From assembly GCF_003334765.1 (NCBI RefSeq), contig NZ_QOWT01000002.1: a stretch of DNA of 64,000 nucleotides; one strand, 5' to 3'. Shown piece after piece: positions 59,206-59,829 of this stretch (positions are counted from its first letter, which is position 1; every line of letters starts with the position of its first letter). This stretch comes from Escherichia coli (lineage in GTDB: Bacteria > Pseudomonadota > Gammaproteobacteria > Enterobacterales > Enterobacteriaceae). The notes under the pieces are model-generated. The model did not search any database. It was not told the DNA's origin and was given only the letters and a program-made list of their open reading frames with translations. Made by a program: the position numbers and the translations under genes.

Positions 59206-59523
59206 ATGATCGTGCAAAAAGAGCTGGTTGCTATTTACGATTATGAGGTCCCTGTACCTGAAGATCCGTTTTCCTTCAGACTTGAGATCCATAAATGCCC
59301 TGAATTATTTACAGGTTCCGTCTATCGACTGGAGCGATTCCGGCTACATCCAACATTTCATCAACGTGATCGAGAAGATGCTGACCCGCTAATAAATGAT
59401 GCGTTGATTTATATAAGAGATGAGTGTAATGATGAGCGGAAATTACGAGGTGAATCACCTGAAACTGTAATAGCAATTTTTAATCGTGAACTACAGAATA
59501 TATTCAACCAAGAAATAGAATAA
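59206..59523 (+). CDS. yehK: Small protein of unknown function YehK
   Basis: 105-aa ORF, MIVQKELVAIYDYEVPVPEDPF. Confidence 0.75.
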   Translation: MIVQKELVAIYDYEVPVPEDPFSFRLEIHKCPELFTGSVYRLERFRLHPTFHQRDREDADPLINDALIYIRDECNDERKLRGESPETVIAIFNRELQNIFNQEIE

Positions 59524-59692
59524 TATACTCTAAATAATTCAAATTGGTCCGATCCGGCGCAACGTCCCAATGGCCTGGATTATAAATCTCATTATCTTAA
59601 TTGCAACGGGGTCCAGCCGTGGTTATAATTCGTTCGTTGGAACACGATGTTGCACAGGCTGCGGTGTTGGGCCTGAAAATAGTAAATAAAAG

Positions 59693-59720
59693 AACCTGCC
59701 TCACCAGCAGGTTTTTTTAT
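59693..59720 (+). terminator. Intrinsic terminator downstream of yehK
   Basis: aacctgc-ctcacca-gcaggtt hairpin followed by TTTTTTTAT. Confidence 0.65.
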
Positions 59721-59829
59721 TTACTGTGATCTGCTTTCCAGATATTTTCCGCTCAAACAACTAATGCGCCAAACATTTATTGCGCGTAAAATATCGTTTA
59801 TTTCATTAATACATTTCAGGGATGAATAT

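What the first reader, a model, noticed from the sequence alone, without database searches (positions are those of the whole stretch)
59206..59829. yehK and a 300-bp untranslated gap before yehL
YehK (105 aa, no recognisable domain) is the last gene before a strong terminator at 59693-59720. About 170 bp between the yehK stop and the terminator, and a further 110 bp to the yehL start, contain no convincing ORF. This space could hold a long 3' UTR, an sRNA, or the yehL promoter and leader.
Basis: seen in the sequence. Interest (0 to 1): 0.3.

Follow-up and report, generated by a model that had tools for sequence, protein, structure and literature searches.

The report
Orphan OrzP antitoxin small RNA gene
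The "empty" gap between yehK and yehL holds a known small-RNA gene, orzP, the antitoxin half of the Zor-Orz toxin-antitoxin pair, left behind after its toxin gene was deleted; the same arrangement occurs in E. coli K-12 and was published in 2024.

Summary
In detail: yehK is at 59206-59523, a strong hairpin plus T-run lies at 59693-59719, yehL starts at 59830, and the 306-bp gap has no credible ORF. The gap is not anonymous.

- **What is there.** Positions 59643-59718 (+) match Rfam RF02083 (OrzO-P antitoxin RNA) at 101 bits against a cut-off of 60. A 10/12 sigma-70 promoter sits just upstream.
- **What is missing.** In O157-type and other Escherichia genomes this site carries one or two complete zor-orz type I toxin-antitoxin pairs. 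Here the 29-aa toxin gene, most of its 5' UTR and the Orz target site are deleted. Only the zor promoter and about 29 nt of its 5' UTR remain.
- **How common it is.** The same deletion junction is present in 1841 of 5426 complete E. coli genomes (34%), including K-12.
- **Prior work.** This "orz-only" locus and its expression in MG1655 (OrzPmg, northern blot) were published in mSystems 2024. K-12 Term-seq places a 3' end at the position equivalent to window 59719.

What remains open is whether the orphan RNA does anything. I found no target for it in the window.

The parts
59206..59523 (+). yehK CDS (105 aa, no recognisable domain)
   Evidence: ORF list. RefSeq annotation 'protein YehK' in matching genomes. 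No Pfam or NCBIfam hit.
59540..59543 (.). Deletion scar: junction between the yehK-proximal flank and the zor 5' UTR, with microhomology TTCAA/TTGAA
   Evidence: Pairwise alignments to two-pair (L001) and one-pair (L002, L003) alleles. A 67-nt junction-spanning probe is found at >=80% coverage in 1841 of 5426 genomes.
59543..59571 (-). Remnant of the zor toxin 5' UTR, about its first 29 nt. The Orz target site, RBS, 29-aa ORF and terminator are all missing.
   Evidence: blastn of the zorP region against the window hits only 59538-59570 and the orz seed. Alignment. Agrees with the '27-29 nt' reported in PMC11264685.
59579..59584 (-). -10 hexamer TATAAT of the surviving zor promoter, which now points into the 3' end of yehK
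   Evidence: Promoter scan, - strand, 59606..59579, 10/12 match. Same hexamer as in full loci (Table 3 of PMC11264685).
59601..59606 (.). Palindromic -35 hexamer TTGCAA shared by the divergent zor and orz promoters
   Evidence: Promoter scan on both strands. Table 3 of PMC11264685.
59624..59629 (+). -10 hexamer TATAAT of the orz promoter
   Evidence: Promoter scan, + strand, 59601..59629, 17-bp spacer, 10/12 match.
59636..59719 (+). orzP-type antitoxin sRNA gene, about 84 nt. The 5' end is inferred and the 3' end comes from K-12 Term-seq.
   Evidence: Rfam RF02083 at 59643-59718, 101.3 bits against GA 60, full-length model. Two nt differ from K-12 OrzPmg. Term-seq 3' end at K-12 2204485 = window 59719. 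Fold z-score -2.5.
59636..59655 (+). 5' seed of Orz, including the 'ACG' V1 triplet that defines the OrzP type
   Evidence: Pairs 6+13 bp (-34 to -36 kcal/mol) with zorP-type 5' UTRs of other strains, about 93 nt upstream of the toxin ATG. It reaches only about -20 kcal/mol with zorO and zorQ types. V1 definition is from PMC3919570.
59686..59719 (+).
   Evidence: Invariant in all 10 Orz copies aligned.
59720..59829 (+). Conserved yehL upstream region, presumed to hold the yehL promoter and leader (not identified)
   Evidence: Near-invariant across 8 Escherichia loci, including E. whittamii. No sigma-70 consensus hit.

Best explanation
The yehK-yehL gap is an 'orz-only' locus: the relic of a zor-orz type I toxin-antitoxin module from which the toxin half has been deleted.

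**What survives**
- An intact orzP-type sRNA gene, from a TSS near 59636 to a 3' end near 59719 on the + strand.
- Its sigma-70 promoter (-35 TTGCAA, -10 TATAAT) and its intrinsic terminator.
- The divergent zor promoter and the first ~29 nt of the zor 5' UTR.

**How the intact module works (shown in the literature)**
- The first 18-19 nt of Orz pair with the long 5' UTR of the zor mRNA.
- This prevents toxin synthesis. Repression depends on RNase III and does not need Hfq.

**What applies here**
- The pairing target and the 29-aa toxin ORF are gone, so the RNA has no resident partner.
- Inferred: the RNA is still transcribed, as shown for the K-12 allele, whose promoter is identical.
- Inferred: it is most likely an expressed evolutionary leftover that keeps the ability to silence a zorP-type toxin mRNA.
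- Whether it has acquired another role is unknown.
- yehK transcripts, having lost the zor terminator that lies next to the yehK stop in full loci, probably terminate at the orz terminator as well.
For: **Identity of the RNA**
- Rfam RF02083 full-length hit at 101.3 bits, GA 60, E 4e-17 (repeated on the whole window).
- A 10/12 sigma-70 promoter is placed so that the TSS falls 7 nt after the -10 hexamer, with a mirror-image promoter on the other strand.
- The window differs from K-12 MG1655 at only 3 of 381 positions in this region. RefSeq annotates nothing in the K-12 gap.

**Origin by deletion**
- The O157-type genome L001 has two full pairs at this site, each with the toxin ORF MDTLTQKLTVLIAVLELLVALLRLIDLLK on the - strand.
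- L002 and L003 have one pair each.
- E. whittamii and two other Escherichia species also carry full pairs between yehK and yehL, so the pair is ancestral and the orz-only state is derived.
- The junction maps to 59540-59543.
- No Zor ORF or target site exists anywhere in the 64-kb window.

**Population counts in 5426 complete genomes**
- orz is present in 5232 and zor in 3395.
- The window-type junction is present in 1841.

**Retained competence**
- The seed pairs at -34 to -36 kcal/mol with zorP-type UTRs from other strains.

**Literature**
- PMC11264685 reports orz-only loci in about 30% of assemblies, with 27-29 nt of zor UTR retained and 96% orzP-like. It also shows a northern blot of OrzPmg in MG1655 against a deletion mutant.
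- PMC3919570 gives the mechanism: 5' 18 nt sufficient, RNase III needed, Hfq not needed.
- PMC7815308 Term-seq lists orphan 3' ends at K-12 2204485 and 2204446, on the + strand.
Against: - Expression was not measured in the strain this window comes from. It is inferred from K-12, whose promoter is identical.
- The TSS at 59636 is inferred from promoter spacing and from the published statement that the first 18 nt of OrzO form the seed. I could not open the primary TSS tables (no rows).
- The Orz alignment shows no compensatory base changes. The terminator is invariant and stem 1 shows only one-sided changes. Structure therefore rests on the Rfam model and on thermodynamics.
- Between this window and K-12, the sRNA (2 of 84 nt different) is not more conserved than the surrounding 12.8 kb (1.25% different). 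These data give no sign of purifying selection on the orphan.
Confidence: 0.9

Rival explanations
1. The orphan OrzP is not a mere relic. It is kept because it does something without its toxin. One option is that it regulates another mRNA in trans. Another is that it acts as 'anti-addiction' immunity, neutralising zorP genes that arrive by recombination from the two-thirds of E. coli that carry them.
For: - Promoter, seed and terminator are intact.
- The seed still pairs strongly with zorP-type UTRs of other strains.
- One and the same deletion allele is present in 34% of genomes.
- The RNA is detectably expressed in K-12, and the authors themselves raise a toxin-independent role (PMC11264685).
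Against: - No target was found. The best non-self duplex in the 64-kb window (-28.6 kcal/mol, 63078-63103) is equalled or beaten by 18 of 39 shuffled seeds.
- Orz shows no excess conservation relative to its flanks in the window-K-12 pair.
- High identity among orz-only loci is expected anyway if they descend from one recent deletion.
- No phenotype of the MG1655 deletion mutant is reported in the paper sections I read.
Confidence: 0.25
2. The gap is simply a long yehK 3' UTR. The RNA ending at 59719 is read-through or a processed yehI-yehK mRNA rather than an independent gene.
For: - No terminator-like site lies between the yehK stop (59523) and 59693 on the + strand.
- The zor terminator that abuts yehK in full loci (L001 around 1975-2015) is deleted here.
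Against: - A 10/12 promoter lies immediately upstream of the Rfam match.
- The same promoter drives Orz in full loci, where yehK is separated from it by the convergent zor gene and its terminator.
- In MG1655, deleting the promoter plus the first 34 nt abolishes the northern signal (PMC11264685).
- Both sources of the RNA can coexist.
Confidence: 0.05
3. The hairpin at 59693-59719 is a transcription attenuator or leader element that controls yehL.
For: - Weak sub-threshold Rfam hits to Thr, Trp and Phe leaders cover the hairpin (18-26 bits against cut-offs of 41-55).
- K-12 Term-seq files the 3' end as 'upstream ORF -111 yehL'.
Against: - The leader hits are far below their gathering scores and are driven by the generic terminator hairpin.
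- The same hairpin ends every Orz copy, including the orzO copy in L001 that is followed by zorP rather than by yehL.
- There is no leader peptide with regulatory codons in the gap.
Confidence: 0.03
4. The gap encodes a small hydrophobic protein from the 39-aa ORF at 59570-59689, MAWIINLIILIATG...
For: - The ORF has an ATG start, a hydrophobic N-terminus and a stop 3 nt before the terminator stem.
- A related frame is open in E. whittamii.
Against: - There is no Shine-Dalgarno sequence upstream.
- The ATG is ACA or ACG in zorP and zorO alleles.
- The frame is not kept in the orzO paralogue.
- The ORF lies across two promoters and the sRNA.
- It has no NCBIfam family.
- The open frame is explained by the >97% nucleotide identity of the orzP copies.
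Confidence: 0.02

Closest known systems
OrzPmg of E. coli K-12 MG1655 (orz-only locus; Fozo laboratory, mSystems 2024, PMC11264685)
   Same: - Same chromosomal site between yehK and yehL.
- Same 306-bp gap and same deletion junction.
- Same promoters and same terminator.
- The seed is identical.
   Different: - Two substitutions inside the RNA, C59662 (T in K-12) and G59669 (A in K-12). Both lie outside the seed and terminator.
- Both substitutions are shared with the orzP copy of E. whittamii, so they are probably the older state.
- Expression was not tested in this strain.
[quoted passage not shown]
   Same: - The sRNA, its promoter, the palindromic shared -35 hexamer and the terminator.
- The V1 triplet 'ACG' of the OrzP type.
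- The seed is complementary to the zorP 5' UTR.
   Different: - No toxin ORF, no RBS, no target site and no zor terminator.
- The locus is therefore not a toxin-antitoxin system here.
Other divergently encoded, 5'-UTR-targeting type I antitoxins (IstR-1/tisB, OhsC/shoB)
   Same: - A short Hfq-independent sRNA encoded next to its toxin gene, not antisense to it.
- It pairs through its 5' end with a site far upstream of the toxin RBS (PMC3919570).
   Different: - They belong to different sequence families.
- According to PMC11264685, antitoxin-only states are rare for shoB/ohsC (two strains), whereas orz-only is common.

Membership tests
OrzO-P antitoxin sRNA family (Rfam RF02083) | Covariance-model score at or above the curated gathering threshold, over the full model length | tested here: met
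   101.3 bits against 60, model positions 1-76 of 76, at 59643-59718 on the + strand.
OrzO-P antitoxin sRNA family (Rfam RF02083) | Located in the yehK-yehL intergenic region, syntenic with characterised orz genes | tested here: met
   Same flanking genes as the orz copies in L001-L003 and L005-L007.
OrzO-P antitoxin sRNA family (Rfam RF02083) | Own sigma-70 promoter (-35 TTGCAA, -10 TATAAT) and a Rho-independent terminator | tested here: met
   Promoter scan gives 10/12. Hairpin plus seven T's. Hexamers are identical to those tabulated in PMC11264685.
OrzO-P antitoxin sRNA family (Rfam RF02083) | 5' seed of 18-19 nt complementary to a zor mRNA 5' UTR | tested here: met
   Pairs 6+13 bp with one mismatch (-34 to -36 kcal/mol) with zorP-type UTRs of L001, L002, L005 and L007. 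This satisfies the published rule of at least 17 nt with one internal mismatch. The targets lie in other genomes, not in this one.
OrzO-P antitoxin sRNA family (Rfam RF02083) | The RNA is actually transcribed | not testable with these tools
   Shown for the near-identical K-12 allele by northern blot (PMC11264685) and Term-seq. There are no data for this strain.
Type I toxin-antitoxin system (zor-orz) | A small hydrophobic toxin ORF (Zor, 29 aa) encoded divergently next to the sRNA | tested here: not met
   tblastn with ZorO finds only chance fragments inside long ORFs. Only 33 nt of the zor 5' UTR remain. ORF list.
Type I toxin-antitoxin system (zor-orz) | Antitoxin target site present in a resident toxin mRNA | tested here: not met
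   A search for the reverse complement of the seed with up to 3 mismatches finds only the orz gene itself in the 64-kb window. The rest of the genome could not be searched. The count of genomes with the window-type junction (1841) fits the count with orz but no zor (5232-3395=1837).
Type I toxin-antitoxin system (zor-orz) | The sRNA neutralises toxin-induced growth arrest | not testable with these tools
   Shown for OrzO and zorO in PMC3919570. Not shown for this allele.

The most novel reading that the evidence does not exclude
The orphan OrzP has a life of its own, in one or more of three ways.

- It may regulate an unrelated mRNA in trans.
- It may give orz-only lineages immunity against zorP toxin genes acquired by recombination.
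- The surviving zor promoter (-10 at 59584-59579) may now drive an antisense RNA across the 3' end of yehK. In that case the deletion would have rewired yehK expression.

My data exclude none of these. The promoters are intact, the seed is intact, and no minus-strand 3' end or TSS data for the yehK region could be retrieved.
Probability: 0.2. Interest if true: 0.5.

Novelty: already known. Interest (0 to 1): 0.2.

Why it matters
Practically, it shows that a gap left blank by genome annotation holds a real, expressed sRNA gene. None of the RefSeq records sampled list zor or orz, and neither does the K-12 reference copy used here. Standard pipelines also miss the 29-aa Zor toxins, which are present in about 63% of complete E. 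coli genomes.

Biologically, orphan type I antitoxins are a small open question: are they decaying leftovers, immunity elements, or regulators recruited for new targets? This locus is a clean natural example, with a single deletion allele in one third of the species. It has already been described, and nothing in this window changes that picture.

Tried and rejected
- **In-window target search.** The exact or near-exact target site (up to 3 mismatches) was found only in the orz gene itself. A duplex-energy scan of both strands gave a best non-self hit of -28.6 kcal/mol at 63078-63103, inside yehM. That is no better than shuffled seeds (mean -28.9; 18 of 39 as good or better) (the first attempt timed out).
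- **Genome-wide target search.** Not possible, because only 64 kb of this genome is held.
- **Small-protein reading.** The 39-aa and 42-aa ORFs were rejected: no SD, a start codon that is not conserved, and no family match.
- **Leader or attenuator reading.** Rejected, because the Rfam leader hits are far below threshold.
- **Covariation support for the Orz fold.** None is available. There are 10 copies but only 4-5 distinct sequences, the terminator is invariant and no change is two-sided.
- **TSS evidence for the orz promoter and the remnant zor promoter.** The Thomason 2015 dRNA-seq paper is not held. The Cappable-seq and SMRT-Cappable-seq supplements held as text contain no rows for these coordinates. 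Term-seq tables list no minus-strand 3' end between K-12 2203900 and 2204499.
- **Literature search on 'yehK'.** Swamped by author names.
- **Spread beyond Escherichia.** An exact 30-mer of the conserved 3' half was scanned against one genome for each of about 100,000 species. It hit only three Escherichia species. An exact-match scan would miss diverged copies.

Full report
**Observation.**
- yehK is an ATG-initiated ORF of 105 aa at 59206-59523 (+). It has no Pfam match even at E<=10 and no NCBIfam match.
- yehL, as annotated in matching RefSeq genomes (1089 bp), begins at ATG 59830. The gap is therefore 306 bp, exactly as in K-12 MG1655.
- The hairpin AACCTGC/GCAGGTT at 59693-59713 is followed by seven T's on the + strand. 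In the minimum-free-energy fold it extends to a 14-bp stem.
- The gap contains only two short ORFs, of 39 and 42 aa. Neither is credible.

**What it is.**
- A scan against Rfam gave a full-length match to RF02083, the OrzO-P antitoxin RNA family, at 59643-59718 (+). It scored 101.3 bits against a gathering score of 60 (confirmed on the whole window).
- Directly upstream is a sigma-70-type promoter: TTGCAA at 59601-59606, a 17-bp spacer, then TATAAT at 59624-59629, a 10/12 match.
- The -35 hexamer is a palindrome. It also serves a mirror-image promoter on the minus strand with TATAAT at 59584-59579.
- With a start 7 nt after the -10 hexamer, at about 59636, the RNA is about 84 nt.
- Its first 20 nt, GUUGGAACACGAUGUUGCAC, contain the 'ACG' triplet that defines the OrzP type, as opposed to 'GAA' in OrzO (PMC3919570).

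**Comparison with other genomes shows the origin.**
- In an O157-type genome (L001) the yehK-yehL gap is 1240 bp. It holds two complete modules, each with a 29-aa toxin ORF on the minus strand (MDTLTQKLTVLIAVLELLVALLRLIDLLK), a ~174-nt 5' UTR, and a divergent orz gene.
- Two other E. coli (L002, L003) have one module each.
- Escherichia whittamii and two unnamed Escherichia species also carry full modules between yehK and yehL. The paired state is therefore ancestral.
- Alignment places a deletion junction in the window at 59540-59543, with TTCAA/TTGAA microhomology. Everything from the zor terminator to about nt 30 of the zor 5' UTR is missing.
- What remains of zor is its promoter and about 29 nt of 5' UTR at 59543-59571 on the minus strand.
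- The window has no Zor-like ORF and no second copy of the Orz target site.

**How common it is.** Counts are among 5426 complete E. coli genomes.
- 5232 carry an orz gene.
- 3395 carry a zor toxin region.
- 1841 carry the window's junction sequence over at least 80% of a 67-nt probe.
- The last figure agrees with 5232-3395=1837. Essentially all orz-only genomes therefore share one deletion allele.
- None of the RefSeq records listed has any feature annotated over zor or orz. The K-12 reference copy used here has nothing in the gap either.

**Already known.**
- All of this has been published. The Fozo laboratory's mSystems 2024 paper (PMC11264685) reports that about 30% of 2212 assemblies are 'orz-only'.
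- It reports that more than 99% of these retain 27-29 nt of the zor 5' UTR and that 96% are orzP-like.
- It also shows that MG1655 expresses the RNA, named OrzPmg, by northern blot against a promoter-deletion mutant.
- orzP now appears in lists of MG1655 sRNAs (PMC12306157).
- Term-seq data for K-12 list 'orphan' + strand 3' ends at 2204485 and 2204446, which correspond to window 59719 and 59680 (PMC7815308).
- The window differs from K-12 at only three positions in 59480-59860. Two are inside the RNA (59662 C/T and 59669 G/A), outside both the seed and the terminator.
- Both variants also occur in the E. whittamii orzP copy. They are ordinary polymorphisms rather than decay.

**Mechanism.**
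- For the intact module, the first 18 nt of OrzO are sufficient to repress zorO, through pairing with the 5' UTR. Repression needs RNase III and does not need Hfq (PMC3919570).
- The target region is proposed to be a ribosome standby site that becomes exposed after processing (PMC11264685).
- Here that target is absent.
- The window's seed still forms a 6+13-bp duplex (-34 to -36 kcal/mol) with zorP-type UTRs of other strains, about 93 nt upstream of the toxin start. It reaches only about -20 kcal/mol with zorO and zorQ types.
- I therefore commit to this reading: an expressed, still competent antitoxin RNA with no resident toxin, most probably a leftover.
- Shown: identity, anatomy, the deletion, the population frequency and the retained pairing capacity.
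- Inferred: transcription in this strain, the exact 5' end, and the lack of a current function.

**Tests of a function beyond the toxin.**
- A duplex-energy scan of both strands of the window found nothing better than shuffled seeds give.
- The sRNA is not more conserved than the surrounding 12.8 kb between this strain and K-12: 2 of 84 nt against 1.25%.
- The family alignment offers no compensatory changes.
- These results neither support nor exclude a new role, because a whole-genome target search was not possible.

**The rest of the gap.**
- No terminator separates the yehK stop from the orz terminator. In full loci the zor terminator sits next to yehK.
- The surviving zor promoter now points into the 3' end of yehK. 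Whether it makes an antisense RNA could not be checked.
- The 110 bp between the terminator and yehL are almost invariant across Escherichia species. They presumably hold the yehL promoter, which the consensus scan did not detect.

**Verdict.** The element is an orphan OrzP antitoxin gene that is already described. Interest is low for novelty, and the open question of what orphan type I antitoxins do remains.

Noticed in passing
window 10075-10223, 10410-10552, 10738-10880 (+): Three tandem Sib antitoxin RNAs (Rfam RF00113, 142-150 bits) lie here. From memory, K-12 has two at this site (sibA, sibB). This would be a second type I toxin-antitoxin family with copy-number variation in the same window.
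   Followed up: no
window 59579-59606 (-) and yehK 3' end: The zor promoter survives the deletion intact (10/12 match) and now faces the 3' end of yehK, with no terminator-like site on the minus strand until 59174-59153. It could produce an RNA antisense to yehK. I could retrieve no TSS or 3'-end data for it.
   Followed up: partly
window 59720-59829: The 110 bp upstream of yehL are nearly invariant in eight Escherichia loci, apart from an 11-bp insertion in E. whittamii. YehK protein, by contrast, differs at many positions in that species. The segment contains no sigma-70 consensus match, so it may hold an unidentified yehL promoter or regulator site.
   Followed up: partly
L002 607-923 and L003 607-923 (yehK): yehK is annotated as a frameshifted pseudogene in both single-pair zor-orz strains examined.
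   Followed up: no
RefSeq E. coli records: No listed record annotates the 29-aa Zor toxin ORFs or the orz sRNAs. Yet zor is present in 3395 and orz in 5232 of 5426 complete genomes, which is a systematic annotation gap.
   Followed up: yes
L005 12536-12625 (-), Escherichia whittamii: The second Zor copy in E. whittamii has Q6R (MDTLTRKLTV...). This toxin variant is not among the ZorO, ZorP and ZorQ variants named in the 2024 paper sections I read.
   Followed up: no
window 24240-24325 (+), 40571-40667 (-), 32646-32716 (-): Ordinary known RNAs: CyaR, a TPP riboswitch and a naRNA4 (REP-derived) element.
   Followed up: no
window 55513-63208 (yehI, yehL, yehM and onward): The orz locus sits inside a cluster of poorly understood genes: DUF4132 YehI, the MoxR-type AAA+ ATPase YehL, YehM, VWA-domain YehP and SWIM-domain YehQ. 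The cluster's function is unknown.
   Followed up: no
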